Below, one piece after another: positions 3,428 through 11,983 of a DNA stretch of 64,000 nucleotides. Under the pieces are notes generated by a model. The model made no database searches. It saw only the letters and a program-made list of their open reading frames with translations, and was not told the DNA's origin. The stretch lies in sequence record NC_048731.1. One strand, 5' to 3'. The position numbers and the translations under genes were made by a program. Position 1 is the stretch's first letter. Each line of letters opens with the position of its first letter. Source of the stretch: Escherichia phage fp01.

Positions 3428-3503
3428 TGGTAGTTAGTAGTGGATTTGAACCACTGTAGTCGCTCCGTATGAAGGAGGTGCATAACCACTCTGCCAACTA
3501 ACT
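3428..3503 (-). tRNA. tRNA, anticodon CAT (Met/Ile2 family)
   Basis: cloverleaf read by eye: acceptor AGTTAGT/ACTAACT, T-arm AGTGG-TTCAAAT-CCACT, anticodon loop TTCATAC, encoded CCA. Confidence 0.7.
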
Positions 3504-3599
3504 ATTATGTTTTACTAGACTAAGTAAGTATTCTTTATACTCTTTAGACCAATTAGCTTTTTTAAACTTTCCTGGACGCATAGTCTTAATTCCTAAATT

Positions 3600-3676
3600 T
3601 GGTACTCCGGGAGGGATTTAAACCCCCGATCTCTCGGTTATCAGCCGAGTGCTTTAGATCGCTAAGCTACCGAAGC
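3600..3676 (-). tRNA. tRNA-Ile (anticodon GAT)
   Basis: acceptor GCTTCGG/CCGGAGT (wobbles), D-stem GCTT/AAGC, anticodon stem CTCGG/CCGAG with loop CTGATAA, CCA encoded. Confidence 0.7.
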
Positions 3677-3677
3677 A

Positions 3678-3905
3678 TTAACATTTTACAGCAGAACGTT
3701 TGCCATTTCTGGGTGCACCTGGAAGTCGTGCACGTTCTGACATTCTTCGCTTAATCTTTGAGATATTTTCTAGTGTTTGTTCTTCAGGCTTAATACCTGA
3801 AACACTACACCACTGATTACCATCCCATGCGGTAATGATCATAACACCATTACTCATGATCTTTTCTGTAAAAGTAATCCTCATTATAGCAACTCGTCTA
3901 AGCAA
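3678..3905 (-). CDS. hypothetical protein
   Basis: ORF track 75 aa. Confidence 0.4.
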   Translation of the reverse strand: MLRRVAIMRITFTEKIMSNGVMIITAWDGNQWCSVSGIKPEEQTLENISKIKRRMSERARLPGAPRNGKRSAVKC

Positions 3906-4177
3906 GAGGTATATTTAAGTTTACCATCTTTATCTACTTTGATTTCGACTTCCACTCGTGGTACTTGACGAACTACACCATGAATCATCTTATAGTTAAT
4001 AGACTTAGATGGTTCATAATCTTTTGGAAAGACTTGCTTAACCGTTACTACCTTGTACCCATCACGCGGTGTTAGTACAACTACTTGATCACCTTCTTTG
4101 ATTTTCCAAGAGCCAGGAAATTCATAAGTATAGCGTTGACCACCAGTTTGGAACACAACAGAAAGATAACGTTTCAT
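3884..4177 (-). CDS. hypothetical protein
   Basis: ORF track 97 aa; lies directly downstream of promoter 4208-4236. Confidence 0.5.
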   Translation of the reverse strand: MKRYLSVVFQTGGQRYTYEFPGSWKIKEGDQVVVLTPRDGYKVVTVKQVFPKDYEPSKSINYKMIHGVVRQVPRVEVEIKVDKDGKLKYTSCLDELL

Positions 4178-4207
4178 TTGGCTTCCCTCTCATTAATTTA
4201 TATAAAT

Positions 4208-4236
4208 ATTATAGCAATAAATAAGAGAGAAAGCAA
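4208..4236 (-). promoter_or_regulatory. T5-type early promoter (minus strand)
   Basis: plus attata 4208-4213, aagcaa 4231-4236, 17-bp spacer; flanking aatttatataaat block. Confidence 0.55.
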
Positions 4237-4244
4237 ATGAATTT

Positions 4245-4412
4245 TTAATAAAGTTTAGTCACTTCATAAACTATACTACGAGATTCTTTATTACGTTCTA
4301 TTAAATTAGCATATGCTTTTTCAGCTTCATTTTTAGTATTAAAGTCTATAACGTGGGAGGTATTCGCTCTATTTGATTGACTATACCAGATAACTACTAA
4401 CAGTTTAAACAT
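4245..4412 (-). CDS. hypothetical small protein
   Basis: ORF track 4245..4439; start trimmed to an internal Met because the upstream part overlaps the tRNA at 4427-4513. Confidence 0.3.
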   Translation of the reverse strand: MFKLLVVIWYSQSNRANTSHVIDFNTKNEAEKAYANLIERNKESRSIVYEVTKLY

Positions 4413-4426
4413 ACTAGTCCTTAAGT

Positions 4427-4513
4427 TGGTGCTGGGCACAGGATTCGAACCTGCAATGGGATTACTCCTCCTGATTACAAATCAGGTGCATTCAACCATT
4501 CTGCCAACCCAGC
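4427..4513 (-). tRNA. type II tRNA (long variable arm), anticodon loop TTTGTAA; identity uncertain
   Basis: acceptor GCTGGGT/GCCCAGC, T-arm GCAGG-TTCGAAT-CCTGT, variable arm GGA-GTAA-TCC, CCA encoded; loop position 34-36 reads TGT, which is atypical for a type II body. Confidence 0.55.
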
Positions 4514-4521
4514 AGAACCCG

Positions 4522-4686
4522 TTATTTCAACGGGATTTCTTTTTCAATAACAGGAGACTTATCAGTCATGACTGTCATTGCCATTTGTTGTAGAAATTCA
4601 AAGGTGAAGGCTACACGTTCTTCACCAATCTCTACTTCTACACGTTTCTTTTGTTTGTCGATCTTAACTTTTAGGTTATCAGCCAT
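4522..4686 (-). CDS. hypothetical small protein (54 aa)
   Basis: manual translation MADNLKVKIDKQKKRVEVEIGEERVAFTFEFLQQMAMTVMTDKSPVIEKEIPLK; below the ORF-track size cutoff. Confidence 0.3.
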   Translation of the reverse strand: MADNLKVKIDKQKKRVEVEIGEERVAFTFEFLQQMAMTVMTDKSPVIEKEIPLK

Positions 4687-4930
4687 TAGAGATTACAGTA
4701 CTGGTAGTTGGCAGTATTACAGATGAAGCAACAGTGTTTAAATGCTTTCTCCAGTCTAGGTTAAATTGTTTTCGAAAATCTTCATAAGGTTCTTCCGGAT
4801 AAAAGCTAAAACCTCCTTTTTCATCATTCAGGATAACAGAGCCGTCAGTTTGTTCGTATGCTCGGTATGTTTCTCCAATAATAATAACTCGTTTATCGGT
4901 ACTTTTATTACGAAATTCAAAAACGTGCAT
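4679..4930 (-). CDS. hypothetical protein
   Basis: ORF track 83 aa. Confidence 0.4.
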   Translation of the reverse strand: MHVFEFRNKSTDKRVIIIGETYRAYEQTDGSVILNDEKGGFSFYPEEPYEDFRKQFNLDWRKHLNTVASSVILPTTSTVISNG

Positions 4931-4946
4931 AACGTTTCCTTAAAGT

Positions 4947-5022
4947 TGGAGCGGCTAGAGGGAATCGAACCCTACTCAGCGAGGCTTGGAAGGCCTGCGA
5001 CACAACCCGTGTGCTTAACCGC
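4947..5022 (-). tRNA. tRNA-Gly (anticodon TCC)
   Basis: acceptor GCGGTTA/TAGCCGC, anticodon loop CTTCCAA, T-loop TTCGATT, CCA encoded. Confidence 0.65.
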
Positions 5023-5030
5023 TTATTGTT

Positions 5031-5108
5031 TGGCAGGGGATATTGGATTTGAACCAATGATCTCGACTTCAAAGGCCGAAGCTTTAGGCCAGGCTAAGCT
5101 AATCCCCA
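5031..5108 (-). tRNA. tRNA-Gln (anticodon TTG)
   Basis: anticodon stem TCGGC/GTCGA with loop CTTTGAA; T-arm ATTGG-TTCAAAT-CCAAT; position 1-72 unpaired; CCA encoded. Confidence 0.65.
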
Positions 5109-5114
5109 ACTGTT

Positions 5115-5190
5115 TGGCAGAAGGTAGTGGGTTCGAACCACTGATCGGGGTTTCAGAGACCCCAGCCTTAACCGACTTGGCTAACCTTCT
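5115..5190 (-). tRNA. tRNA-Gln (anticodon CTG)
   Basis: acceptor AGAAGGT/ACCTTCT, anticodon stem GGGGT/ACCCC with loop CTCTGAA, T-arm AGTGG-TTCGAAC-CCACT, CCA encoded. Confidence 0.65.
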
Positions 5191-5749
5191 TCTTAATACT
5201 TTTTGGATCTTTACCTGTTAAGGATTTATAACGTTTACGTAGTCCGTTATCAGATAACCCTAACTCTTTTGATGCTTTAACCCATGAATAGTTTATTACC
5301 CAATATTCTATTTGCTCTGCTGTAATATCAGGGCTACTCTTAGGTTTACAGTCAAAACAAGTTTTAGAGGAAGAATTTATTTGTTTATTACAGTAAGGGC
5401 ATTTATTACCACCTATTGTATGCCCCCTTTCAACTGTAGTTTTTATTCTATGCTCTTCCTTGGTCATGACCACCAGATTATCTAAGGAAAAGTTCAATTT
5501 ATTCCTATCTTTGTGATCCACTTCTAGTTCAGATTCTAGTGAAGGTAAATCTTTAAATACTCTAGCTAATAATCTATGCAATACAATAGAGACATTCTTA
5601 CCCTGCTCATAGAACGTTACAAACGGATACCCTGCACTACCTAAGTGATGTGTTAGTAATTTATTACTCTTAGTAGAGTAAACCTCCCCATATGGGGAGA
5701 TTAAGTATTTGGGATACTCCGGAATTACTTTGAAATTCTCTAATTTCAT
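5168..5749 (-). CDS. HNH homing endonuclease
   Basis: 193 aa; HNH motif VDHKDRNKLNFSLDNLVVMTKEEHRIK; Cys pairs CPYC/CFDC; 3' end overlaps the tRNA-Gln(CTG) gene by about 23 nt. Confidence 0.7.
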   Translation of the reverse strand: MKLENFKVIPEYPKYLISPYGEVYSTKSNKLLTHHLGSAGYPFVTFYEQGKNVSIVLHRLLARVFKDLPSLESELEVDHKDRNKLNFSLDNLVVMTKEEHRIKTTVERGHTIGGNKCPYCNKQINSSSKTCFDCKPKSSPDITAEQIEYWVINYSWVKASKELGLSDNGLRKRYKSLTGKDPKSIKKKVSQVG

Positions 5750-5750
5750 C

Positions 5751-5951
5751 TTACTCTACAGGAACCGTGGCGATTGGTTCTGGATCTTCTAAACGTTTGC
5801 CTTCATGATCTACTCGAATAACTCCGCATCCCTCGCAAATCACAACAGCACCGTAGCCTTCTTTAACTTCAGCTTCTGTAATCAAACCAGAAAGATCACC
5901 AGTATCTCTGCCCCACATATCAATGGAGCATTGTTTGCAGAAATCAGCCAT
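5751..5951 (-). CDS. hypothetical Cys-rich small protein
   Basis: ORF track 66 aa; CKQC ... CEGCG motifs. Confidence 0.45.
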   Translation of the reverse strand: MADFCKQCSIDMWGRDTGDLSGLITEAEVKEGYGAVVICEGCGVIRVDHEGKRLEDPEPIATVPVE

Positions 5952-5976
5952 ATTTTATTTCCTATTTAAGTTAATT

Positions 5977-6053
5977 TGGGGTGGCTAGTGGAATTCGAAT
6001 CCACATAGGCCTGATTCACAATCAGGATCATTAACCAATTATGATATAGCCAC
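5977..6053 (-). tRNA. tRNA-His (anticodon GTG)
   Basis: acceptor GTGGCTA/TAGCCAC, discriminator C, D-stem TCAT/ATGA, anticodon stem CCTGA/TCAGG with loop TTGTGAA, CCA encoded. Confidence 0.75.
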
Positions 6054-6422
6054 AATTGAAAACTCGCAGGGTTAGCGAAACCTTCCTCAATTAGCATGTT
6101 CTAGAATACTAATCAAGTTATCTCCTATTGCACGCAGCTCAAGACGAGTACGAATTTTCAATTGTGGCGGCTCTCCGAAACTCTTCTACTCTAGCCTTAG
6201 CAGCTTACTCCCGAACGCATGTCGGGAAAGTCTTACTAAGAGCATCAAATAGCACCGTTACACTTTGAGCCATAGATATATCAAGAAGCAGAAGGACTTG
6301 AACCTTCACGAGATAGACCATTTATCTCAGCCGCTTTATGAGGTATGTTGCAGGGAGTGGATGTTCCCTATAAACCTTTTAGGCAGCCCCGTCTACCGAT
6401 TCCGGCATACTTCAAGAATTTT

Positions 6423-6596
6423 TTATAAACCAGCAGAAGCCTCATTTAAAGCATCAACAATAGCTTCACGTTGGGTCATTCCGTACCCGGTGGAATCTAG
6501 GTGTGGCAAATAAGCCATCCATCCCTTATCTGTTTCATGAAGACATGCTTTAAATTTTTTACCATCCTTCATTGTTACAGTAACTGTTTTGCTCAT
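6423..6596 (-). CDS. small HicB-like (antitoxin-fold) protein, 57 aa
   Basis: manual translation MSKTVTVTMKDGKKFKACLHETDKGWMAYLPHLDSTGYGMTQREAIVDALNEASAGL; the Y-x-P-x-L-x-G-x-G-x-T-x-x-EA-x-x-A-x-x-EA pattern resembles HicB/UPF0150 N-domains. Confidence 0.4.
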   Translation of the reverse strand: MSKTVTVTMKDGKKFKACLHETDKGWMAYLPHLDSTGYGMTQREAIVDALNEASAGL

Positions 6597-6616
6597 AAGA
6601 CTTCCTTATAGTTAAT

Positions 6617-6706
6617 TGGCAGAAGATAATGGAGTCGAACCATCACCGTATCGCTACAGCGGGCTGGTTTTCAAGACCAGTTACGTACCACTACGTCCTA
6701 TCTTCT
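6617..6706 (-). tRNA. tRNA-Ser (anticodon TGA), type II
   Basis: acceptor AGAAGAT/ATCTTCT, anticodon stem CTGGT/ACCAG with loop CTTGAAA, long variable arm, CCA encoded. Confidence 0.7.
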
Positions 6707-6712
6707 ATTGTT

Positions 6713-6803
6713 TGGCGGAAGAGGAGAGATTTGAACTCTCAAGCCGTTTTACCAGTCAGCCGCTTTCCAAGCGGTTTTCGTCGCCAATTCGATTTGCTCT
6801 TCC
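6713..6803 (-). tRNA. tRNA-Ser (anticodon GGA), type II
   Basis: acceptor GGAAGAG/CTCTTCC, T-arm GAGAG-TTCAAAT-CTCTC, anticodon loop TTGGAAA, long variable arm, CCA encoded. Confidence 0.7.
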
Positions 6804-6915
6804 AATAATAAGATGATGCCTCTATCACACCAGGCAGTTACGCCTCGCTGGGATTCGAACCCATTAAAACAGCTCAACCGAGATAGTAGGTTTAATTTAC
6901 TCTGACCATCAAATT

Positions 6916-7000
6916 TGGTGGGGCTAGGGAGACTCGAACTCCCACGCATTTAAGCTACGGAATCTAAGGCCGTATTGTCTACCAGTTCCAGCATAGCCCC
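6916..7000 (-). tRNA. tRNA-Leu (anticodon TAG), type II
   Basis: acceptor GGGGCTA/TAGCCCC, anticodon stem TACGG/CCGTA with loop CTTAGAT, T-arm GGGAG-TTCGAGT-CTCCC, CCA encoded. Confidence 0.65.
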
Positions 7001-7005
7001 GAATT

Positions 7006-7079
7006 TGGTGGAGAAAGAGGGAGTTGAACCCTCGTCTTCTGCGTGCAAAGCAGATGTTCTACCATTAAACTATATCCCC
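7006..7079 (-). tRNA. tRNA-Ala (anticodon TGC)
   Basis: anticodon stem TCTGC/GCAGA with loop TTTGCAC, T-arm GAGGG-TTCAACT-CCCTC, CCA encoded. Confidence 0.65.
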
Positions 7080-7411
7080 AAATTCTTTAGTTTACTAAGG
7101 CTATTAGCTCGGCGTAACTACAGCACCTTCGCTTCGAGCGGAAGGAACTGCGTCATCTCGCAAACCCAATACACTATTCAGTTGCCACTGAATCTAGTGG
7201 ACTAATCTAGAACTTCTCCCGAATCGTAGGGATCGTGCTTTTTGGCAGCCAGTCCTAGGTCGAGCTAATACCTTAGTGAACTAAATTGATGGATACCAGA
7301 CTAATTTTGCTACGACGTTTATCCTGAGGATCTCTTTTTCGGTAGCTCTGCTAGTGTAGACGTCATACACCTGATATCTAGGCAGCTATTTTCGCATCAA
7401 TTTATATAAAT

Positions 7412-7440
7412 ATTATAACAAGAAATTAAGCATCAAGCAA
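7412..7440 (-). promoter_or_regulatory. T5-type early promoter (minus strand) firing into the ORF-free region 7080-7405
   Basis: plus attata 7412-7417, aagcaa 7435-7440, 17-bp spacer; flanking caatttatataaatatt block. Confidence 0.55.
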
Positions 7441-7458
7441 CTGCGTTTTTCTTGAAAT

Positions 7459-7537
7459 TGGTAGATCGCCTGGGACTCGAACCCAGAACCTTCCGATTAA
7501 AAGTCGGATGCTACTAAACCTATTGAGCTAGCGATCT
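7459..7537 (-). tRNA. tRNA-Lys (anticodon TTT)
   Basis: acceptor AGATCGC/GCGATCT, anticodon stem TCCGA/TCGGA with loop CTTTTAA, T-arm CTGGG-TTCGAGT-CCCAG, CCA encoded. Confidence 0.75.
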
Positions 7538-7538
7538 A

Positions 7539-7706
7539 TTAGTAACCATTATATACTTCTTTAATAGAGTGAACTTTCAAGTAAGGGTGATTAGTATTAA
7601 ATTCTACCATTACTTCATCCCAATTTTTACCATAATGAGCAAGTAAGGATTTTGATGTATTCTTACCTAATCGTTTGTCACTTACTACTAATCGAAATAC
7701 TTTCAT
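7539..7706 (-). CDS. hypothetical small protein (55 aa)
   Basis: manual translation MKVFRLVVSDKRLGKNTSKSLLAHYGKNWDEVMVEFNTNHPYLKVHSIKEVYNGY; below ORF-track cutoff. Confidence 0.3.
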   Translation of the reverse strand: MKVFRLVVSDKRLGKNTSKSLLAHYGKNWDEVMVEFNTNHPYLKVHSIKEVYNGY

Positions 7707-7726: not shown

Positions 7727-7804
7727 TGGAAGCGGGTGCAGGGATCGAACCTACCTCTTTCTAGCTTATGAGACTAGCGATCTCTACCAGAGATCTAACC
7801 CGCA
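7727..7804 (-). tRNA. tRNA, anticodon CAT (Met/Ile2 family)
   Basis: D-stem GATC/GATC, anticodon stem CTAGT/GCTAG with loop CTCATAA, T-arm GTAGG-TTCGATC-CCTGC, position 1-72 unpaired, CCA encoded. Confidence 0.65.
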
Positions 7805-7810
7805 ATTGTT

Positions 7811-7886
7811 TGGTCAGTGCGGCAGGACTCGAACCTGCGACCCGAAGCATCCAAGGCTCCCACGCTACCAACTGCGCTACGCACTG
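7811..7886 (-). tRNA. tRNA-Pro (anticodon TGG)
   Basis: acceptor CAGTGCG/CGCACTG, D-arm GCGC-AGTTGGTA-GCGT, anticodon loop CTTGGAT, T-arm GCAGG-TTCGAGT-CCTGC, CCA encoded. Confidence 0.75.
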
Positions 7887-7917
7887 TTAATTTTTGTTAA
7901 CTCACTTTATAAAATAC

Positions 7918-7946
7918 ATTATACAGATAATTAAGCAGAATAGCAA
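7918..7946 (-). promoter_or_regulatory. T5-type early promoter (minus strand) upstream of tRNA-Pro/tRNA-Met
   Basis: plus attata 7918-7923, tagcaa 7941-7946, 17-bp spacer. Confidence 0.5.
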
Positions 7947-8083
7947 ATGAATTTTTAATAAATTTACTTATTGTGTAGGCCACCTGGAGGCTACCAACCC
8001 CACGGCTGACAAAGAAGTTTGCGAGACCTCTCTTAAATGCCAGAATAGACCCGCCAATCTATCGGAACCTACATAATAAGTAA

Positions 8084-8207
8084 ACTTTATAGTGTCATTC
8101 TAGACAGGACTCGAACCTGCTATCACTTGTGCGGACTTACGAGAACCATTCTTTCACTCGAGTCGAACGAGCTTCTGCCCTAGCCAAGCTGGTTTCCCCA
8201 TCAACCA
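8084..8207 (-). ncRNA. elongated tRNA-like gene (about 124 nt): perfect acceptor stem, D-arm and T-arm plus a ~49-nt insertion
   Basis: minus-strand 5' ATTCTAG (plus 8201-8207) pairs perfectly with 3' CTAGAAT (plus 8088-8094); D-arm TGGT-TGATGGGGAA-ACCA; T-arm GCAGG-TTCGAGT-CCTGT; an extra internal hairpin CTCG-TTCGACT-CGAG; no canonical anticodon arm. Confidence 0.35.
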
Positions 8208-8338
8208 CGCTAGAATGTTTGATTGTTTTCAGTGCAAGAGTCCGAGTCTTGGACACGACCGCTTCGCAAGTACATAGGCAGCTTATCATGAGTCAGCACT
8301 TCCGAATTGCTAGCTCCGTGTTCTGCACTGAAATTTTG

Positions 8339-8686
8339 TTAATTTAATAGTAAAGTATTATCTACTTCACCATTAATTGTTCGGCATTCTTCTGGGATTG
8401 CTGGGGTGGCCTTGTATTCCCACCACTCAGAACCATCATATTCACCACGTTCTAACCAAGTTCCATCAGTAAACCATACGTTACCGTAAAGCAATTGTCC
8501 ACCGAAACCAGAATCATATTTAAAGTCTAGATTATTTAGAAAATCTTCAATATCTTTTTCTGTATAACCTACTGGTAATACCCAAACTTCTTTGTCCCCA
8601 TAATAACCGAATTCTATCTTAATACACTTAACTTCAGAATTAGTATTCTTTAGGGCAAGTAACAACTCTTCTTTAGCATTAATCAT
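8339..8686 (-). CDS. hypothetical protein
   Basis: ORF track 115 aa. Confidence 0.5.
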   Translation of the reverse strand: MINAKEELLLALKNTNSEVKCIKIEFGYYGDKEVWVLPVGYTEKDIEDFLNNLDFKYDSGFGGQLLYGNVWFTDGTWLERGEYDGSEWWEYKATPAIPEECRTINGEVDNTLLLN

Positions 8687-8712
8687 AGCGTATTTCTCGT
8701 ACTAGTTTAGTT

Positions 8713-8788
8713 TGGTACACCCACTAGGACTTGAACCTAGAACCCTCCGCTTAAGAGGCGGTAGCTCTAACCATTGAGCTATGGATGT
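8713..8788 (-). tRNA. tRNA-Lys (anticodon CTT)
   Basis: acceptor ACATCCA/TGGGTGT, D-arm GCTC-AATGGTTA-GAGC, anticodon loop CTCTTAA, T-arm CTAGG-TTCAAGT-CCTAG, CCA encoded. Confidence 0.7.
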
Positions 8789-8969
8789 ATATTTGAAGAA
8801 TCTCTCGTAAGAATTTCTTCAAATACCCTCTCCTGTGAAAAAGGGATTTGCTTAATTATTGTGGCTAGGGCGCGGTAAAGCAGCTTTCTAGTCGGAAGCC
8901 CCAGAGCATATCCGTCTAAAGACCATATGTGACCTCCCCTATCTTTACCTACTCTGTACCCTAATTGTT

Positions 8970-9046
8970 TGGCGCGACCGATGGGATTCGAACCCACATT
9001 CTCTCCCGTGACAGGGGAGTACCATTACCAAGCCAGCCCCGGTCGC
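8970..9046 (-). tRNA. tRNA-Asp (anticodon GTC)
   Basis: acceptor GCGACCG/CGGTCGC, anticodon stem CTCCC/GGGAG with loop CTGTCAC, T-arm GTGGG-TTCGAAT-CCCAT, CCA encoded. Confidence 0.75.
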
Positions 9047-9055
9047 ATAATTCAT

Positions 9056-9241
9056 TTACTCAGCTTTGAGTTTTTCAATAGCTGCATTAAGTTCCTTAAG
9101 AAACTCTTTTCGTACATTAAGACGATTAAGACTTACTAGTATATCATGTTTAAGTTCTTCGATGTATTTCTTCTCCACTTCAATATTGTTGATAGTGCTA
9201 TCACGATGAACTTCTAGCTGCGCAATTACATTCTTGGACAT
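9056..9241 (-). CDS. hypothetical small coiled-coil protein
   Basis: ORF track 61 aa. Confidence 0.4.
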   Translation of the reverse strand: MSKNVIAQLEVHRDSTINNIEVEKKYIEELKHDILVSLNRLNVRKEFLKELNAAIEKLKAE

Positions 9242-9343
9242 GCTTGTTTCCTCAGTTATTAATGAAAATGGTATCTGTGGCTGAATTCGATATCAGCAAT
9301 GATAGCTGGTTGGCTACCGGTTTACTTAACTCTACACAGAATT

Positions 9344-9426
9344 TGGCGGGCCGTGTAGGATTCGAACCTACGTTGTCTTTCGACATGGATTAACAGTCCA
9401 CCGCCAAACCGCTTGGCTAACGACCC
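9344..9426 (-). tRNA. tRNA with anticodon GTT (Asn by loop position) but an extended variable arm
   Basis: acceptor GGGTCGT/ACGGCCC, anticodon stem GTGGA/TCCAT with loop CTGTTAA, variable GTC-GAAA-GAC, T-arm GTAGG-TTCGAAT-CCTAC, CCA encoded. Confidence 0.55.
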
Positions 9427-9578
9427 TAAATTTATATTGCTGACTAGGATTTTCACCTAGACGGAGTTAGCACCGTAGCGTGTAGCGGCATACCTCTCCA
9501 AACCGTGCCTCATCTTTCAATTACGGAGACAGTGTTCCTACGCGTGCCTGAATTGATTTAACAATTCTTTCAGCAAAT

Positions 9579-9654
9579 TGGACGACCGCATGAGATTTAA
9601 ACTCACATAAAAAGGATTTGCAATCCTTCGCCTAAGCCATTCAGCCAACGGTCG
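9579..9654 (-). tRNA. tRNA-Cys (anticodon GCA)
   Basis: acceptor CGACCGT/GCGGTCG, anticodon stem AAGGA/TCCTT with loop TTGCAAA, T-arm GTGAG-TTTAAAT-CTCAT, CCA encoded. Confidence 0.7.
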
Positions 9655-9703
9655 ATTTATCTTGTTCTGTCATGTTGCTCCCCACAGTTCAATTTATGTA
9701 ATT

Positions 9704-9732
9704 ATTATACAGAACTTTTGGAAACTAAGCAA
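9704..9732 (-). promoter_or_regulatory. T5-type early promoter (minus strand)
   Basis: plus attata 9704-9709, aagcaa 9727-9732, 17-bp spacer; overlaps the 3' end of ORF 9725-10012. Confidence 0.45.
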
Positions 9733-10012
9733 CTACATTTTTTAAGAATTTGATGCCTTTCTTTTTCTTCTTATATTTCCACGTTAATGGATTCTGTCGA
9801 TTGTGAACGCTTGAGATCTTCGTCTCGTCAAAGTTCTTCAATATCATGTAATCACAAGATAATTGTTCTAGTGGAATGTGATCACCATCAAAAGCATATA
9901 CATAAGGCTGTTGACTAGCACGATAATGATAGACTTTGTTAATTCTACGTTTCAGCGACTTATCCGCGCAGTAAATAAAGAAGTTTTCAGGATGCATCAG
10001 CAGCTCCTTCAA
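9725..10012 (-). CDS. hypothetical protein
   Basis: ORF track 95 aa. Confidence 0.45.
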   Translation of the reverse strand: MKELLMHPENFFIYCADKSLKRRINKVYHYRASQQPYVYAFDGDHIPLEQLSCDYMILKNFDETKISSVHNRQNPLTWKYKKKKKGIKFLKNVVA

Positions 10013-10014
10013 TT

Positions 10015-10089
10015 TGGTGCACCCTGTTCGTATCGAACGAACCTCTCAAGCTCTTCAGGCAAGCGCTAATCCATCTCAGCTAAAGGTGC
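10015..10089 (-). tRNA. tRNA-like gene with atypical anticodon arm (identity unresolved; possible pseudo-tRNA)
   Basis: acceptor GCACCTT/AGGGTGC, T-arm GTTCG-TTCGATA-CGAAC and CCA are good; no clean 5-bp anticodon stem with a 7-nt loop could be drawn. Confidence 0.4.
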
Positions 10090-10095
10090 AAATTT

Positions 10096-10178
10096 TGGCA
10101 AACCTACTAGGACTCGAACCTAGACCGTACGGTTTTGGAGACCGACATGCTGTCCAGTAACACTCTAGGAATGCAGGA
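10096..10178 (-). tRNA. tRNA-like gene, candidate anticodon CCA (Trp), weak acceptor stem
   Basis: T-arm CTAGG-TTCGAGT-CCTAG, anticodon stem CGGT/ACCG with loop CTCCAAA, CCA encoded; acceptor stem has two T-T mismatches. Confidence 0.4.
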
Positions 10179-10180
10179 AT

Positions 10181-10257
10181 TGGCGTCCTGTGCGGGGATC
10201 GAACCCGCAAATCCTACCTTGAAAGGGTAGTGACTTTACCAGTTTGTCTAACAGGAC
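10181..10257 (-). tRNA. tRNA-Glu (anticodon TTC)
   Basis: acceptor GTCCTGT/ACAGGAC, anticodon stem CTACC/GGTAG with loop CTTTCAA, T-arm GCGGG-TTCGATC-CCCGC, CCA encoded. Confidence 0.75.
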
Positions 10258-10263
10258 TTAAAT

Positions 10264-10350
10264 TGGTGGGGAAAGATGGAGTCGAACCACCCGAGTCGCA
10301 ATGACAACTGATTTACAGTCAGCTCTGCTACCACTTACAGAATATTCCCC
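10264..10350 (-). tRNA. tRNA-Tyr (anticodon GTA), type II
   Basis: anticodon stem GCTGA/TCAGT with loop CTGTAAA, long variable arm, T-arm GGTGG-TTCGACT-CCATC, CCA encoded. Confidence 0.7.
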
Positions 10351-10482
10351 CATATTTAGAAGTATTCAAAAAATTCTAATTTAAACACTTTTAAATATGT
10401 TTCCAAATTAGATAACTATTATACCAAGTTTTAAGGCACTGAGCAAGTCAAATTTTAAAGAACTTGCTCAGTGCTGTATTAG

Positions 10483-10758
10483 TTAGTCGAACTTAGGAGT
10501 GACAGTTAAGGAGAATGGAAGTTCGAAAACTTCTTCACCCTCATCACTAACAGTAATTACACGACCTTTAAGTTCAGACATTGAAATATCAATATCAGCT
10601 TTTGCATCCGGAGCCATGCCAGCTTCAACACATTTAGCTTTAATTTCCGGCAGAAGTTCTACATCGTAGAAATAAAGCCATTCAATCTCACCTTCCCAGC
10701 CTTCCCAGGATTTACAGATTGCACTTTCAATACCAGCTGCTATAACACGATTTTGCAT
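10483..10758 (-). CDS. hypothetical protein
   Basis: ORF track 91 aa. Confidence 0.5.
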   Translation of the reverse strand: MQNRVIAAGIESAICKSWEGWEGEIEWLYFYDVELLPEIKAKCVEAGMAPDAKADIDISMSELKGRVITVSDEGEEVFELPFSLTVTPKFD

Positions 10759-10848
10759 TCGTTAACTCCTTCATCAATTTATATAACTATTATATCAGAA
10801 ATTTAAAGCAAAAGGCAAGTACATTTTTAAAAATTCTATTTGGAGGAG

Positions 10849-11055
10849 CTAAACTCCAGATTCTTCAGCCAAGTCTAGACTAATAAGAGATATAGCCATA
10901 ATTGCCGCTCCATGCTCTTTTTCTCCAGTCTCTTTAGCTAGAGTTATAATGTCAAGAAATTGCTTATGAAAATCTGCAACCTCTTGAGTTATACCTGCCT
11001 CAGCAATCATGCCTTTAAGCATGAAACGTTGTGCTGTAATTTCAGGATTAGCCAT
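10849..11055 (-). CDS. hypothetical protein
   Basis: ORF track 68 aa; ATG overlaps the stop of the upstream small ORF (TAATG-style coupling). Confidence 0.45.
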   Translation of the reverse strand: MANPEITAQRFMLKGMIAEAGITQEVADFHKQFLDIITLAKETGEKEHGAAIMAISLISLDLAEESGV

Positions 11056-11215
11056 GTTGTTTCTCCAGTTTCATCTTTAATAGTCTACAAATAAAATCAA
11101 TGTCTTCATCCGTGCCTAGATCTCTGTCTTCAAGAGTTGCCTTGAAGTTTTTAGTCAATTCCATGAGGATAACTTCCCTAGAACGACGTGTTGGCGGAGG
11201 TGGATGTCTATACAT
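11048..11215 (-). CDS. hypothetical small protein (55 aa), Pro-rich N-terminus
   Basis: manual translation MYRHPPPPTRRSREVILMELTKNFKATLEDRDLGTDEDIDFICRLLKMKLEKQHG; below ORF-track cutoff. Confidence 0.3.
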   Translation of the reverse strand: MYRHPPPPTRRSREVILMELTKNFKATLEDRDLGTDEDIDFICRLLKMKLEKQHG

Positions 11216-11230
11216 CTTATTTCCTTAATT

Positions 11231-11307
11231 TGGTAGGGGTGGTGGGATTCGAACCCACAAAACCTGAATTTTAAGTCCAGTACCTATGCCAATTCGATTA
11301 CACCCCC
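11231..11307 (-). tRNA. tRNA with anticodon TAA (Leu by loop position) on a short-variable-loop (type I) body
   Basis: acceptor GGGGGTG/CACCCCT, anticodon stem CTGGA/TTCAG with loop CTTAAAA, 5-nt variable loop, T-arm GTGGG-TTCGAAT-CCCAC, CCA encoded. Confidence 0.55.
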
Positions 11308-11408
11308 GTGTAATCAGTTTATTAGTTGATACATATTATAGCCTAGTGAAAACCCTACTACTAGTCCCACAAACCAACCAATATAATAATCTTTTAGTTT
11401 CACAGGTA

Positions 11409-11594
11409 TTATCCTCTTTCAATATCTAGAGAAATACCACAGTTAGGATTAATACCTGTACCCTTGCAATTTGGGCAAACCCATATATTGCAAAAAGTAT
11501 CTCCTGCTTCTGCATCAGAACTTTCACCAATTCCCCTACACTCAGGGCAGGCACACTTTTCTAGCTCTTGCTTGAGTTCTTGAAACTTGGACAT
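11409..11594 (-). CDS. small zinc-ribbon protein
   Basis: ORF track 61 aa; CACPEC...CPNC Cys pairs. Confidence 0.45.
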   Translation of the reverse strand: MSKFQELKQELEKCACPECRGIGESSDAEAGDTFCNIWVCPNCKGTGINPNCGISLDIERG

Positions 11595-11603
11595 ATAGTC
11601 TCC

Positions 11604-11792
11604 TTAGTCAATTACTTTTGAGGCTTCAAGGTAGTCGATATAGTGTACGTTTTCTACCGTAATCATATAATCTGCCACTTTATCCATAGCTTGGGCTTCA
11701 GAGGTAGCTCTGGCTAGCCTATATCCTTTTTTATATTCATCCGGGTATTCTCTATCTTGAATAAACACAACATAAACTATATACAGATCCAT
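11604..11792 (-). CDS. hypothetical protein
   Basis: ORF track 62 aa. Confidence 0.45.
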   Translation of the reverse strand: MDLYIVYVVFIQDREYPDEYKKGYRLARATSEAQAMDKVADYMITVENVHYIDYLEASKVID

Positions 11793-11810
11793 TTGTGACC
11801 TCTATTTAAT

Positions 11811-11888
11811 TGGTGGCTCCCCGAGGATTCGAACCTACGTACCTTCCGGTTATGAGCCGGGTGCTCATACCATATGAGCTTGAGAACC
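11811..11888 (-). tRNA. tRNA, anticodon CAT (Met family)
   Basis: acceptor GGTTCTC/GGGAGCC, anticodon stem CCGG/CCGG with loop CTCATAA, T-loop TTCGAAT, CCA encoded; third CAT tRNA in the array. Confidence 0.6.
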
Positions 11889-11894
11889 AAAATC

Positions 11895-11983
11895 TGGCGG
11901 AAGAAGTGGGAATCGAACCCACAAGGCTATATTTCAAACCGACAGATTAGCAATCTGCTGCAATACCGTTATGCTATTCTTCC
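11895..11983 (-). tRNA. tRNA-Ser (anticodon GCT), type II
   Basis: acceptor GGAAGAA/TTCTTCC, anticodon stem GCAGA/TCTGT with loop TTGCTAA, long variable arm, T-arm GTGGG-TTCGATT-CCCAC, CCA encoded. Confidence 0.7.

What the first reader, a model, noticed from the sequence alone, without database searches (positions are those of the whole stretch)
3428..11983. tRNA array with three CAT tRNAs and several non-canonical members
About 26 tRNA or tRNA-like genes lie on the minus strand, nearly all with encoded CCA. Three carry anticodon CAT (3428-3503, 7727-7804, 11811-11888), consistent with initiator, elongator Met and Ile2 types. Oddities: a type II body with loop TTTGTAA (4427-4513); anticodon GTT on a body with an extended variable arm (9344-9426); anticodon TAA on a type I body (11231-11307); two with position 1-72 unpaired (5031-5108, 7727-7804); and two adjacent tRNA-like genes with good T-arms and CCA but poor anticodon or acceptor arms (10015-10089, 10096-10178). 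These may decode unusually or act in non-translational roles.
Basis: partly seen in the sequence, partly recalled or inferred. Interest (0 to 1): 0.5.

Follow-up and report, generated by a model that had tools for sequence, protein, structure and literature searches.

The report
T5-type phage tRNA cluster, body-swapped members
This is the well-known block of transfer-RNA genes of a T5-like bacteriophage, but its Thr and Asn tRNAs carry an extra arm and one Leu tRNA lacks it, a design found across many phages and not in the cellular genomes searched, which may let the virus keep translating when the host destroys its own tRNAs.

Summary
The minus strand of 3428-11983 holds 23 tRNA genes that pass Rfam's curated threshold, plus three sub-threshold tRNA-like genes, and all 25 tRNA genes have an encoded CCA. 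The window is a T5-like phage (Demerecviridae). The array is collinear with the annotated phage T5 tRNA region, including T5's stable RNAs.

The three CAT tRNAs match T5 tRNA-Met, tRNA-fMet and tRNA-Ile2. The two 1-72 mismatches sit in the Gln and initiator-like tRNAs, where a weak 1-72 pair is expected. The "poor" pair are the T5 tRNA-Phe orthologue and a tRNA-Trp allele. All anticodons are standard and match the host synthetase identity elements, so unusual decoding is not supported.

Three members are structurally non-canonical: class II tRNA-Thr(UGU), long-variable-arm tRNA-Asn(GUU), and class I tRNA-Leu(UAA). Each recurs in hundreds of phage records from several families. The extra arm covaries. 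I found none in E. coli genomes and almost none in 185,579 species genomes.

Thr(UGU) and Asn(GUU) are the tRNAs cut by the PARIS and P2-OLD defence nucleases. Phage Bas33, which carries the same class II Thr, needs only T5 tRNA-Lys to escape PARIS.

Best reading: functional replacement tRNAs. That the changed body itself gives nuclease resistance is inferred, not shown.

The parts
3428..3503 (-). tRNA-Met(CAU), elongator type; Ser-like D arm; U4-A69 and A5-U68 as in E. coli tRNA-Met
   Evidence: ARAGORN; Rfam 51.5 bits; 76/76 identical to T5 tRNAM(CAU)
3600..3676 (-). tRNA-Ile(GAU)
   Evidence: 76/77 identical to T5 tRNAI1
4427..4513 (-). Class II (long variable arm) tRNA-Thr(UGU), 87 nt. It has a tRNA-Ser-type D arm, a GGA-GUAA-UCC variable hairpin, the ThrRS identity set, and a host-identical anticodon stem (36-41 UAAUCA).
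   Evidence: (58.9 bits); 86/87 identical to the tRNA-Thr of phage Bas33
4245..4439 (-). Small ORF (64 aa, PHROG 15108, unknown function) that travels with the class II Thr. Window 4249-4514 replaces T5 28664-28744.
4947..5022 (-). tRNA-Gly(UCC), below detection thresholds
   Evidence: Rfam sub-threshold hit; 76/76 identical to T5 tRNAG1, which the T5 record notes can be converted to an effective amber suppressor
5031..5108 (-). tRNA-Gln(UUG) with U1.U72, G2-C71, G3-C70, G73, G10
   Evidence: (77/78 to T5 Q1)
5115..5190 (-). tRNA-Gln(CUG)
5168..5749 (-). HNH/NUMOD4 homing endonuclease (T5 hegD orthologue) inside the array
   Evidence: Pfam HNH_3 and NUMOD4; 95% identical to hegD
5977..6053 (-). 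tRNA-His(GUG)
6055..6416 (-). Equivalents of T5 stable RNAs RNAIII (6055-6160), RNAI (6165-6271) and tRNA-like RNA1 (6272-6416)
   Evidence: blastn to T5 features, 99%, 92% and 86%; Rfam 25.2 bits for 6283-6414
6617..6706 (-). tRNA-Ser(UGA), class II
6713..6803 (-). tRNA-Ser(GGA)-like, non-canonical D region, below threshold
   Evidence: 24 bits; partial match to T5 tRNAS2; fold
6916..7000 (-). tRNA-Leu(UAG), class II. Bas32 and Bas33 carry a 77-nt class I Leu(UAG) at the same slot.
   Evidence: (85/85 to T5)
7006..7079 (-). tRNA-Ala(UGC), an allele different from T5's
7099..7270 (-). Equivalent of T5 stable RNA2H
   Evidence: 98% over 172 nt
7459..7537 (-). tRNA-Lys(UUU), 79 nt, enlarged D loop; an allele different from T5's; 36-41 UAAUCG
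7727..7804 (-). Initiator-like tRNA-Met(CAU): U1xU72, A11:U24, G2-C71, C3-G70, G4-C69. It lacks the three G-C pairs of the anticodon stem and has U73.
   Evidence: (T5 'initiator tRNA fMet')
7811..7886 (-). tRNA-Pro(UGG), an allele different from T5's
7972..8217 (-). Equivalents of T5 stable RNAs RNAIV (7972-8074) and tRNA-like RNA2 (8093-8217)
   Evidence: 97% and 96%
8713..8788 (-). tRNA-Lys(CUU), absent from T5
8970..9046 (-). tRNA-Asp(GUC)
9269..9341 (-). Equivalent of T5 RNA3 (putative tRNA-like RNA; acceptor-like and T-like helices, ends in CCA)
   Evidence: 99%; fold z-score -3.2
9344..9426 (-). tRNA-Asn(GUU) with a 13-nt variable arm (GUC-GAAA-GAC plus AAC), G73, lysT-like acceptor stem, host-identical 36-41 UAAUCC
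   Evidence: (59 bits)
9579..9654 (-). tRNA-Cys(GCA)
10015..10089 (-). tRNA-Phe(GAA) with two U.U mismatches in the anticodon stem and G37
   Evidence: (42.4 bits); 73/75 identical to T5 tRNA-Phe, a published PheRS substrate
10096..10172 (-). tRNA-Trp(CCA) allele with U2.U71 and U3.U70; keeps A1-U72, G73, A9 and CCA; the weakest member
   Evidence: 36.3 bits; z +0.31
10181..10257 (-). tRNA-Glu(UUC)
10264..10350 (-). tRNA-Tyr(GUA), class II
11231..11307 (-). Class I tRNA-Leu(UAA), 77 nt: Leu-type D arm (3-bp stem, 11-nt loop), 5-nt variable loop, A73
   Evidence: (57.4 bits)
11811..11888 (-). tRNA-Ile2-type (CAU), T stem with a bulge
   Evidence: Rfam 40.3 bits, missed by ARAGORN; 76/78 identical to T5 tRNAI2, with a compensatory 30-40 change
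11895..11983 (-). tRNA-Ser(GCU), class II
   Evidence: 89/89 identical to T5
11999..12027 (-). Strong sigma-70-like promoter heading the array. Similar ones lie at 10789-10818 and 7918-7946.
   Evidence: 10 of 12 consensus matches each; T5 promoters are annotated at the equivalent places
15518..15592 (-). tRNA-Arg(UCU), outlying member of the same set
   Evidence: 75/75 identical to T5
15593..16222 (-). Equivalent of T5 stable RNAX, containing a CCA-less tRNA-like element at 16095-16166
   Evidence: (35.5 bits)

Best explanation
The region is the early-gene tRNA cluster of a T5-like phage (Demerecviridae). Host RNA polymerase transcribes it from several strong promoters. It yields about 25 tRNAs with ready-made CCA ends, plus the T5-type stable RNAs.

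All members, the odd ones included, are ordinary decoders. Host synthetases charge them according to their anticodon. They serve the phage in two ways that do not exclude each other:
(i) They raise the supply of tRNAs for the A/U-ending codons that the AT-rich phage uses far more than the host does.
(ii) They stand in for host tRNAs that defence nucleases destroy during infection. Examples are PARIS AriB (Lys-UUU, Thr-UGU, Asn-GUU), P2 OLD (Thr-UGU) and retron Eco7 PtuAB (Tyr).

This phage carries a different allele set from T5 at the slots those nucleases target. T5's Lys, Thr and Asn are class I tRNAs with a substitution at nucleotide 39 and a weakened anticodon stem. This phage keeps the host's U36-A-A-U-C stem and instead changes the body: a Ser-type D arm plus a variable hairpin in Thr, a variable hairpin in Asn, and an enlarged D loop in Lys.

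Shown here: identity of the locus; standard anticodons and identity elements; conservation, covariation and phage restriction of the extra arm; cassette-like allele replacement; codon bias.

Taken from papers: the nuclease targets, the rescue by T5 tRNAs, and the fact that Bas33 needs only tRNA-Lys.

Inferred: that these alleles are expressed and charged in this phage (very likely), and that the altered body is what makes them poor nuclease substrates (about 35% likely).
For: Locus identity:
- 96-97% identical over more than 85% of the query to Tequintavirus genomes; 1180 phage records match.
- Collinear with T5 28.0-38.0 kb, including RNAIII, RNAI, RNA1, RNA2H, RNAIV, RNA2, RNA3 and RNAX.
- 16 tRNAs are at least 93% identical to T5 tRNAs. 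The T5 record carries functional (amber-suppressor) notes for many of them.

Standard decoding:
-.
- The identity sets from PMC9976931 are met by Thr, Asn, Leu, Gln and the initiator-like Met, checked against verified MG1655 tRNAs.
- C2-G71 and A73 in the class II Thr are anti-SerRS features.

Functional constraint on the extra arms:
- Asn: 24 distinct variable hairpins. On a 21-sequence alignment all 4 variable-stem pairs change on both sides and 95.5% of cells are paired. The whole structure is 97.4% paired against 68.6% in shuffles.
- Thr: three lineages with stems GGA/UCC, CC/GG and GAC/GUC, all keeping G1-C72, C2-G71, A73 and UGU.

Spread across phages:
- Class II Thr in 113 phage records, including Aeromonas T4-like phages.
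- Long-arm Asn in 559 records, including T4-like, Vequintavirinae and Erwinia phages.
- Class I Leu(UAA) in 386 records, including Pseudomonas, Aeromonas and Vibrio phages.

Restriction to phages:
- No blastn match in 5,426 E. coli genomes.
- The 185,579-species scan gave 39 hits, against roughly 95 expected by chance. Only 4 are tRNA-Asn genes, and 2 of those sit in dense tRNA arrays.
- The same pattern gave 59 hits in viral contigs, almost all of them tRNA-Asn genes.

Codon bias, phage/host ratio: AGA 7.8, AUA 4.35, CUA 4.1, ACA 2.6, AAU 2.4, GGA 2.2, UUA 2.2.

Defence link:
- AriB cuts Lys-UUU, Thr-UGU and Asn-GUU between nucleotides 40 and 41, and T5 Lys+Thr+Asn restore infection (PMC12409363).
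- P2-OLD kills by destroying tRNA-ThrU, and phage Thr(UGU) tRNAs rescue (PMC12445682).
- Bas33 (HildyBeyeler) has the same class II Thr (86/87), a long-arm Asn and no Lys-UUU. It is rescued from PARIS by T5 tRNA-Lys alone, whereas tRNA-less T7 needs Lys plus Thr.
Against: - There are no expression, processing or charging data for this phage or for these alleles.
- The Bas33 argument is indirect. The paper did not test its Thr gene, and rescue requirements varied among phages in ways its authors could not explain.
- The class II Thr keeps the AriB site U36AAUC|A41 and the P2-OLD C28-N-G30 and C40-N-G42 motifs unchanged, with a fully paired stem. By the determinants mapped so far it should be cleavable.
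- ThrRS and AsnRS are class II synthetases that face the variable-loop side of tRNA (my knowledge of the crystal structures, not tested here). An extra arm could therefore hinder charging.
- Single-sequence folding gives the cloverleaf for Asn, fMet, Ile2 and Phe, but not for Thr, Leu(UAA), Met or Trp.
- Trp (two U.U mismatches in the acceptor stem, z +0.31) and Ser(GGA) may be crippled.
- Codon compensation alone could explain why the genes are kept.
Confidence: 0.75

Rival explanations
1. Codon-usage compensation only. The array exists to supply tRNAs for codons that are rare in the host. The unusual bodies have no bearing on function or defence.
For: The U34-type tRNAs of the array read exactly the A-ending codons enriched in the phage: AGA 7.8x, AUA 4.35x, CUA 4.1x, ACA 2.6x, GGA 2.2x, UUA 2.2x. 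This is the classical view, cited for T5-like phages in PMC10644984.
Against: - It does not explain tRNAs for codons that are not enriched: Trp 0.99, Glu 1.0, Tyr UAC 0.98, Asn AAC 0.77.
- It does not explain why alleles are swapped as cassettes at the nuclease-target slots.
- Published rescue experiments show a defence role for T5 Lys, Thr, Asn and Tyr.
Confidence: 0.3
2. The body-plan changes are neutral historical baggage. The class II Thr is a mosaic or recruit built on a tRNA-Ser scaffold, the Asn arm is an old insertion, and the class I Leu is an old deletion. All are tolerated because the relevant synthetases ignore the variable region.
For: - The Thr D arm (TGGCAGARTGGTTGAATGCA) is the canonical tRNA-Ser D arm. 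About 95 of 106 viral tRNAs with that motif are Ser.
- After its own lineage, the nearest relatives of the class II Thr are class II Trp, long-arm Asn and Ser(UGA).
- E. coli LeuRS does not need the long arm, and Asn identity transplants onto a Lys body using only GUU plus G73.
- The window's Asn has a lysT-like acceptor stem.
Against: - The variable hairpin is maintained by many compensatory changes across at least 24 sequence variants and several phage families. This argues for selection on the arm itself.
- The design is essentially absent from cellular genomes.
- It is concentrated in a few isoacceptors: Asn, Thr-UGU, Trp and Cys.
Confidence: 0.3
3. The odd members decode unusually (mischarging, for example Ser or Leu at ACA) or act outside translation.
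For: - SerRS and LeuRS ignore the anticodon, so a class II body with a Thr anticodon could in principle be mischarged.
- A73 is a Leu determinant.
- The T5 record lists tRNA-like RNAs of unknown function next to the tRNAs.
Against: - The class II Thr has all four ThrRS acceptor-stem determinants plus G35 and U36.
- It lacks G2-C71 and G73, which SerRS needs, and carries C2-G71, a listed SerRS antideterminant.
- Its variable stem is only 3 bp.
- Its D loop is Ser-type, not Leu-type.
- All three class II Thr lineages conserve the Thr elements.
- No member has a stop or otherwise irregular anticodon.
Confidence: 0.05
4. Some odd members are decaying pseudogenes carried along in the array: the Trp allele, Ser(GGA), and perhaps Phe.
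For: - Trp scores 36.3 bits, has two U.U mismatches in the acceptor stem, and does not fold better than shuffles.
- Ser(GGA) is below threshold and diverged from T5 S2.
- The T5 record flags Gln(CUG) as a pseudogene.
Against: - The Trp allele is identical in 8 viral contigs and in Bas32 and Bas33, and keeps A1-U72, G73, A9 and CCA.
- T5 tRNA-Phe, with the same two U.U mismatches, is a documented PheRS substrate.
- All these genes keep an encoded CCA.
Confidence: 0.25

Closest known systems
Phage T5 tRNA gene region (NC_005859, 28.0-41.6 kb; 24-25 tRNAs plus stable RNAs)
   Same: Same gene order, promoters, HNH endonuclease and stable RNAs. 16 tRNAs are at least 93% identical, including Met, fMet, Ile2, Gly, both Gln, Phe, Tyr and Arg.
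   Different: Thr, Asn, Lys(UUU), Trp, Ala and Pro are non-orthologous alleles. Lys(CUU) and Leu(UAA) are extra. Val(UAC) is missing. T5's Thr and Asn are class I tRNAs (75 and 78 nt) with substitutions in the anticodon stem.
Phage tRNAs that neutralise tRNA-cleaving defence systems (T5 Lys/Thr/Asn against PARIS AriB; phage Thr-UGU against P2 OLD; T5 Tyr against retron Eco7)
   Same: Same isoacceptors and same genomic slots. Bas33, used in the PARIS study, carries the same class II Thr allele.
   Different: The resistance described so far rests on substitutions in the anticodon stem-loop and D loop. [quoted passage not shown] The word 'variable' does not occur in PMC12409363, PMC12445682 or PMC10264068.
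Canonical class II tRNAs (bacterial Leu, Ser, Tyr)
   Same: The Thr gene has a 3-bp D stem, a Ser-type D loop, a variable hairpin and a 7/5 acceptor/T configuration.
   Different: The anticodon and acceptor identity are Thr. The variable stem is short (3 bp). The Asn gene has a normal 4-bp D stem with only the added hairpin. [quoted passage not shown]
Non-canonical long-arm tRNAs: allo-tRNAs and selC* tRNA-Cys (PMC5389517); V-arm-containing tRNAs of eukaryotes (Hamashima 2016, seen only as a reference)
   Same: A long variable arm on tRNAs with non-Leu/Ser/Tyr anticodons. Some were reported from phages.
   Different: Those have 8/4 or 9/3 acceptor/T branches and Ser identity (G73 or U73), and are proposed as missense suppressors. 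The tRNAs here are 7/5, with identity elements that match the anticodon.
tRNA gene recruitment by anticodon change (Saks, Sampson and Abelson 1998; my recollection, not checked here)
   Same: A tRNA body of one family serving another codon family. The Thr gene has a Ser-type D arm, and Ser UGA to Thr UGU is a single base change.
   Different: Here the acceptor stem has also been rebuilt to the Thr identity set. Alternatively the gene is a Thr/Ser mosaic: a class I phage Thr with the same acceptor start and anticodon arm exists (L169).

Membership tests
T5-type (Demerecviridae) tRNA gene cluster | High nucleotide identity and collinearity with the T5 early region that holds the tRNAs | tested here: met
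   96-97% identical to Tequintavirus genomes; collinear blocks with T5 28038-37974
T5-type (Demerecviridae) tRNA gene cluster | T5-specific stable RNAs (RNAI, RNAIII, RNA1, RNA2H, RNAIV, RNA2, RNA3, RNAX) interspersed with the tRNAs | tested here: met
   All eight map at 86-99% identity
T5-type (Demerecviridae) tRNA gene cluster | Expression as early genes and processing to mature tRNAs | not testable with these tools
   Only consensus promoters and an encoded CCA in 26 of 26 genes, the 25 of the array plus the outlying Arg(UCU)
Class II (long variable arm) tRNA | Variable region of 10 nt or more forming a hairpin, supported by covariation | tested here: met
   Thr: 15 nt with a 3-bp stem; three lineages have different complementary stems. 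Asn: 13 nt; 24 variants; all 4 pairs covary.
E. coli tRNA-Thr identity set (ThrRS) | G1-C72, C2-G71, G4-C69, G5-C68, G35, U36 (PMC9976931) | tested here: met
   All are present in 4427-4513. G1-C72, C2-G71 and UGU are kept in all three class II lineages. Charging itself was not tested.
E. coli tRNA-Ser identity set (SerRS), considered for the class II Thr | G73, G2-C71, C11-G24, large variable arm | tested here: not met
   The gene has A73 and C2-G71 (a listed SerRS antideterminant). Only the Ser-type D arm and a short arm are present.
E. coli tRNA-Asn identity set (AsnRS) | G73, G34, U35, U36, A37 | tested here: met
   9344-9426 has GUU, A37 and G73. G73 is kept in every sequence of the 21-row alignment, 20 phage alleles plus E. 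coli asnT.
E. coli tRNA-Leu identity set (LeuRS) | A73, A15/U48 Levitt pair, G18G19 register, A20a; the long arm is dispensable | tested here: met
   11231-11307 has A73, an 11-nt D loop GAAUUGGCAUA in the same register as leuZ (GAAUCGGUAGA), and a variable loop ending in U.
Bacterial initiator tRNA | 1x72 mismatch and purine11:pyrimidine24 (formyltransferase elements) | tested here: met
   U1xU72 and A11:U24. G2-C71, C3-G70 and G4-C69 match metZ. The mismatch is kept in diverged homologues.
Bacterial initiator tRNA | Three consecutive G-C pairs (29-41, 30-40, 31-39) in the anticodon stem; A73 | tested here: not met
   The stem is C-G, U-A, A-U, G-C, U.G and the discriminator is U73. I therefore file it as 'initiator-like', following the T5 annotation, not as a proven initiator.
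tRNA-Ile2 (lysidine-dependent, CAU) | TilS recognition (C4-G69 and C5-G68 in E. coli, my recollection of Ikeuchi 2005) and IleRS charging | tested here: inconclusive
   11811-11888 has U4-A69 and C5-G68. 3428-3503 has U4-A69 and A5-U68, like E. coli tRNA-Met. The assignment rests on the T5 annotation.
E. coli tRNA-Trp identity set | G73, A1-U72, G2-C71, G3-C70, A9, CCA | tested here: inconclusive
   G73, A1-U72, A9 and CCA are present. Positions 2-71 and 3-70 are U.U.
allo-tRNA / tRNA-Sec-like | 8/4 or 9/3 (or 8/5) acceptor/T branch | tested here: not met
   All members are 7/5. The Rfam tRNA-Sec hits score 24-40 bits against a gathering score of 47.
Nuclease-resistant phage tRNA (anti-PARIS / anti-OLD) | Not cleaved by AriB or P2-OLD while supporting decoding | not testable with these tools
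   Indirect only: the Bas33 genotype combined with its published rescue by tRNA-Lys alone. The anticodon-stem motifs are host-like.

The most novel reading that the evidence does not exclude
Phages have repeatedly rebuilt the body plan of particular tRNAs. They add a variable hairpin to Thr(UGU), Asn(GUU), Trp and Cys, and remove it from Leu. This creates virus-specific tRNA architectures that host synthetases and ribosomes still accept, but that shape-reading host tRNA nucleases such as PARIS AriB and P2 OLD do not. If so, it is a second route of immune evasion, distinct from the published anticodon-stem point mutations. It would also mean the rule 'class II = Leu/Ser/Tyr' does not hold for the virosphere.
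Probability: 0.3. Interest if true: 0.75.

Novelty: new variant of a known kind. Interest (0 to 1): 0.5.

Why it matters
The array itself is textbook T5 biology. What is new is that the same genomic slots hold two kinds of allele for the tRNAs that defence nucleases attack. One kind is T5-type, with a mutated anticodon stem. The other keeps the host's anticodon arm and carries a foreign body plan. The second kind occurs across unrelated phage families, shows covariation that preserves the extra arm, and is essentially absent from cellular genomes.

This gives a direct, cheap test of what AriB and OLD-type Toprim nucleases read outside the anticodon stem, a question the PARIS authors state is open. 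It also supplies natural class-switched substrates for ThrRS, AsnRS and LeuRS. And it warns annotators that phage tRNAs break the 'long arm = Leu/Ser/Tyr' rule in both directions.

If the arm proves neutral, the finding reduces to a curiosity of tRNA evolution by mosaicism.

Tried and rejected
- D-arm motif scan. I scanned viral contigs for relatives of the class II Thr using its D-arm motif. The motif turned out to be the ordinary tRNA-Ser D arm: about 95 of 106 hits were Ser. That was useful for the question of origin but poor as a census.
- Species-genome scan. Only 4 are tRNAs. The pattern also demands G44 and the enterobacterial anticodon arm, so it is not a general census.
- Single-sequence folding. 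It was uninformative for Thr, Leu, Met and Trp, because the minimum-energy fold is not the cloverleaf.
- tRNA-Sec, allo-tRNA and suppressor readings. Rejected: the Rfam Sec hits are below the gathering score, all members have 7/5 geometry, and no member has a stop anticodon.
- Supplementary tables of the PARIS and OLD papers (allele sequences, the 245-tRNA library). Not held.
- Identifying Bas34. I failed: MZ501076 is Bas28, MZ501073 is Bas58, and MZ501077 is a short record.
- Locus L186. It has the length of Bas33 but different tRNA content, so I did not rely on it.
- Literature. Searches for phage tRNAs with long variable arms or class I Leu found nothing relevant. The review of non-canonical tRNAs does not mention phages. 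The library lacks most subscription journals and the older Russian T5 literature, so absence there is weak evidence.

Full report

Yes. ARAGORN tRNA genes on the minus strand between 3428 and 11983, and one more at 15518-15592. The extra one is 11814-11888. It also finds two genes outside the range, at 15521-15592 and 16095-16166.

A permissive Rfam scan adds three sub-threshold tRNA-like hits at 4950-5023, 6717-6803 and 6283-6414. All 26 tRNA genes (the 25 of the array plus the outlying Arg(UCU)) end in an encoded CCA.

The one exception is the second gene of the "poor" pair, which is 10096-10172 rather than 10096-10178.

**2. What is the locus?**

The 8.8-kb stretch is 96-97% identical to Tequintavirus genomes, such as Citrobacter phage Cit2 and Salmonella phage S124. 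It matches 1180 phage records.

The reference T5 record (NC_005859) annotates the homologous region in detail. It lists 25 tRNAs with notes on whether each can be turned into an amber suppressor. It also lists promoters P11-P15, HNH endonucleases, and eight "stable RNAs", three of them described as tRNA-like.

All eight stable RNAs map to the window at 86-99% identity:

| T5 stable RNA | Window coordinates |
|---|---|
| RNAIII | 6055-6160 |
| RNAI | 6165-6271 |
| RNA1 | 6272-6416 |
| RNA2H | 7099-7270 |
| RNAIV | 7972-8074 |
| RNA2 | 8093-8217 |
| RNA3 | 9269-9341 |
| RNAX | 15593-16222 |

Sixteen window tRNAs are at least 93% identical to T5 tRNAs. The region is therefore the known T5-type early tRNA cluster. 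Strong sigma-70-like promoters lie where T5 has them.

**3. The oddities that turn out to be ordinary for this family**

*The three CAT genes.* They are 76/76, 77/78 and 76/78 identical to T5 tRNAM(CAU), tRNAfM(CAU) ("initiator") and tRNAI2(CAU).

*The middle CAT gene (7727-7804).* It has the formyltransferase elements named in PMC9976931: a 1x72 mismatch (U.U) and a purine11:pyrimidine24 pair (A11:U24). Its G2-C71, C3-G70 and G4-C69 pairs are identical to E. coli metZ. The mismatch persists in diverged homologues in which another acceptor pair has changed on both sides. It lacks the three G-C pairs of the anticodon stem and has U73, so "initiator-like" is the safe label.

*The first CAT gene.* It has U4-A69 and A5-U68, as E. 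coli tRNA-Met does.

*The third CAT gene.* It differs from T5's by a compensatory 30-40 change.

*The other 1-72 mismatch.* It is in tRNA-Gln(UUG), which keeps G73, G2-C71, G3-C70 and G10. GlnRS is known to open the weak U1-A72 pair (my knowledge, not tested here).

*The two adjacent "poor" genes.* One is the orthologue of T5 tRNA-Phe (73/75 identical, with the same two U.U mismatches). T5 tRNA-Phe is a published E. coli PheRS substrate. A diverged homologue has a fully paired stem but the same CUGAAGA loop. The other is a tRNA-Trp allele that keeps A1-U72, G73, A9 and CCA but has U.U at positions 2-71 and 3-70. It is identical in eight viral contigs and in phages Bas32 and Bas33. It does not fold better than shuffled sequence. 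It is the least convincing member.

**4. The oddities that are structurally non-canonical**

Against T5, six slots hold non-orthologous alleles: Thr, Asn, Lys(UUU), Trp, Ala and Pro. Lys(CUU) and Leu(UAA) are extra, and Val is missing.

The replacements are cassette-like:
- Window 4249-4514 (a small ORF plus the 87-nt Thr) replaces T5 28664-28744 (the 75-nt Thr), between collinear flanks.
- The Asn breakpoint lies inside the 3' part of the tRNA gene.
- Leu(UAA) and two small ORFs sit where T5 has the hegA endonuclease.

*(a) tRNA-Thr(UGU), 4427-4513.* It has a 3-bp D stem, a D arm identical to the canonical tRNA-Ser D arm, and a 15-nt variable region with a GGA-GUAA-UCC hairpin. It carries every bacterial ThrRS determinant listed in PMC9976931: G1-C72, C2-G71, G4-C69, G5-C68, G35 and U36. 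It lacks the Ser set of G73 and G2-C71. C2-G71 is itself a listed SerRS antideterminant.

The allele occurs in 113 phage records. Three lineages exist, in T5-like phages, in the Aeromonas T4-like phage PX29, and in an uncultivated viral contig. Their variable stems are different but complementary (GGA/UCC, CC/GG, GAC/GUC), and all keep the Thr elements. The T5-type class I allele is found at 90% identity or more in about 310 records. The class II allele is found at 93% or more in about 98.

*(b) tRNA-Asn(GUU), 9344-9426.* It has a normal 4-bp D stem, a 13-nt variable arm (GUC-GAAA-GAC plus AAC), G73, and an acceptor stem like that of E. coli lysT. This fits the published finding that Asn identity transplants onto a Lys body with only GUU plus G73.

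Long-arm Asn genes occur in 559 phage records, including T4-like Klebsiella and Enterobacter phages, Erwinia phages and Vequintavirinae. A pattern scan of viral contigs returned 59 loci with 24 distinct variable regions. All of them form hairpins of 2-4 bp, mostly with GAAA-type loops and a 3-nt tail.

On a 21-sequence alignment, all four variable-stem pairs change on both sides and 95.5% of cells are paired. The whole cloverleaf is 97.4% paired, against 68.6% in shuffles and 33-44% when the 3' partners are slid by 1-3 columns.

*(c) tRNA-Leu(UAA), 11231-11307.* It has the Leu-type D arm: a 3-bp stem and an 11-nt loop in the same register as leuZ, with A15, G18G19 and A20a. It also has A73 and a 5-nt variable loop ending in U48. 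E. coli LeuRS does not need the long arm.

The allele occurs in 386 phage records, including Pseudomonas, Aeromonas and Vibrio phages. Bas32 and Bas33 carry a class I Leu(UAG) where this window has a class II Leu(UAG). The two designs are therefore interchangeable at one slot.

*Sample of phage tRNAs.* I tabulated 1025 phage tRNAs from the fetched loci. This sample is biased by how the loci were chosen:

| Isoacceptor | Result |
|---|---|
| Leu(UAA) + Leu(UAG) | 31 of 71 are class I |
| Thr(UGU) | 6 of 45 have a long arm |
| Trp | 4 of 31 have a long arm |
| Cys | 6 of 26 have a long arm |
| Most other isoacceptors | none, or isolated cases |

**5. Are these designs phage-specific?**

Neither the Thr nor the Asn allele has any blastn match in 5,426 complete E. 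coli genomes.

The long-arm Asn pattern hit 39 places in 185,579 species genomes, which is at or below my chance estimate of about 95. Only four are tRNA-Asn genes, and two of those sit in dense 10- and 21-tRNA arrays typical of phages.

The pattern is narrow, so this is an indication and not a census.

[quoted passage not shown] A review of non-canonical tRNAs does not mention phages. Three recent papers on phage tRNAs and defence never use the word "variable".

**6. How it most likely works**

*Codon supply.* The phage uses A/U-ending codons much more than the host does. The phage/host ratios are AGA 7.8, AUA 4.35, CUA 4.1, ACA 2.6, AAU 2.4, GGA 2.2 and UUA 2.2. These come from 64 phage ORFs compared with 42 E. 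coli genes. The array's U34-type tRNAs read exactly those codons.

*Defence.*
- PARIS AriB cuts E. coli Lys(UUU), Thr(UGU) and Asn(GUU) between nucleotides 40 and 41, at U36AAUC|A/C. T5 Lys+Thr+Asn restore infection.
- P2-OLD kills by cutting tRNA-ThrU at C28-N-G30 and C40-N-G42, and phage Thr(UGU) tRNAs rescue.
- T5 tRNA-Tyr counters retron Eco7.

*The allele contrast.* T5's Lys, Thr and Asn all have a substitution at nucleotide 39 and a weakened stem. The window's alleles keep the host motif: Thr 36-41 is UAAUCA, identical to thrU, and Asn is UAAUCC, identical to asnT. They change the body instead.

*The Bas33 evidence.* Bas33 (HildyBeyeler) carries the same class II Thr (86/87 identical), a long-arm Asn and no Lys(UUU). 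In PMC12409363 it is rescued from PARIS by T5 tRNA-Lys alone. T7, which has no tRNAs, needs Lys plus Thr. T4, which has its own Thr(UGU), needs only Lys. The simplest reading is that the class II Thr works in vivo while host tRNA-ThrU is being destroyed.

*What remains inference.* That the extra arm or the Ser-type D arm is the reason for this is my inference. AriB is modelled to contact both the 40/41 site and the D loop, and its authors note undefined distal contacts. The variable arm emerges three nucleotides from the cut site.

**7. Caveats**

- No expression or charging data exist for these alleles.
- The Bas33 argument is indirect.
- ThrRS and AsnRS are class II enzymes that face the variable-loop side of tRNA (my knowledge, not tested here), so the arm could cost charging efficiency.
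- The body changes could be neutral legacies of mosaic evolution. The Thr's nearest non-Thr relatives are class II Trp, long-arm Asn and Ser(UGA). A class I phage Thr with the same acceptor start and anticodon arm also exists.
- Trp and Ser(GGA) may be defective.

**8. Verdict**

The array is already known.

The three class-switched members are real, conserved and covarying. As far as I could test, they are restricted to viruses, and the literature I could search does not discuss them. They involve the isoacceptors that Toprim defence nucleases attack.

I rate this a new variant of a known kind, with interest 0.5.

Noticed in passing
window 16427-16870 (-): A 147-aa ORF, the T5.081 orthologue. 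It matches PHROG 1460 'tRNA amidotransferase' (1e-46) and, just below Pfam's cut-off, the YqeY/GatB-tail domain, a tRNA-binding module. It is a possible phage tRNA-binding factor encoded next to RNAX and the tRNA cluster.
   Followed up: partly
window 12005-12574 (-): A 189-aa Toprim-domain protein (Pfam Toprim_2, 24.9 bits, above its cut-off; PHROG 'DNA primase' fragment; T5.076 orthologue), encoded directly upstream of the array. It is about the size of a stand-alone Toprim enzyme. I did not examine whether it acts on DNA or on the phage's stable RNAs.
   Followed up: no
window 4245-4439 (-) and 4249-4514: The class II Thr allele comes with a 64-aa ORF of unknown function (PHROG 15108). T5 lacks it. 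The pair replaces T5's class I Thr as one cassette with collinear flanks.
   Followed up: partly
window 9344-9368 and 11238-11790: The Asn allele boundary against T5 falls inside the 3' part of the tRNA gene. Leu(UAA) plus two small ORFs occupy the place of T5's hegA homing endonuclease. This suggests recombination at conserved tRNA segments and endonuclease-linked turnover.
   Followed up: no
window 16095-16166 (-), inside 15593-16222: A tRNA-like element (Rfam 35.5 bits) with no CCA and G1.U72 lies within the equivalent of T5 'RNAX'. It is annotated as a 72-nt 'tRNA-Ser-CGA' in Salmonella phage S124, which would be a class I Ser if real.
   Followed up: partly
L005 (Erwinia phage pEp_SNUABM_01) 2992-3078, 4255-4341, 4404-4489: One Vequintavirinae array holds an 87-nt class II tRNA-Trp (G73, A1-U72) and an 86-nt long-arm Asn. 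It also holds an annotated 87-nt tRNA-Lys whose extra length lies in the D region, which ARAGORN does not call.
   Followed up: partly
IMG/VR loci L049, L087, L094, L136: Class II tRNA-Cys(GCA) genes of 84-89 nt. Three of the four carry the Ser-type D-arm motif (L136 only a related one), and the three whose 3' end was recovered have U73. They occur in uncultivated viral contigs.
   Followed up: no
window 7459-7537 (-): The tRNA-Lys(UUU) allele has a 79-nt body with an enlarged D loop and G41 in place of the host's A41. It keeps U39-C40, unlike T5's PARIS-resistant Lys. Its sensitivity to AriB cannot be predicted.
   Followed up: partly
window 10015-10089 (-): The Phe tRNA family keeps G37 (loop CUGAAGA) even in a diverged homologue with a fully paired stem. 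E. coli tRNA-Phe has a modified A37 (my knowledge). This implies a different position-37 modification state.
   Followed up: no
window 2785-3153 (-) and 14536-15483 (-): A glycyl-radical 'spare part' protein (GrcA-like, Pfam Gly_radical 3.7e-18) and an SPFH/Band-7 protein flank the tRNA region.
   Followed up: no
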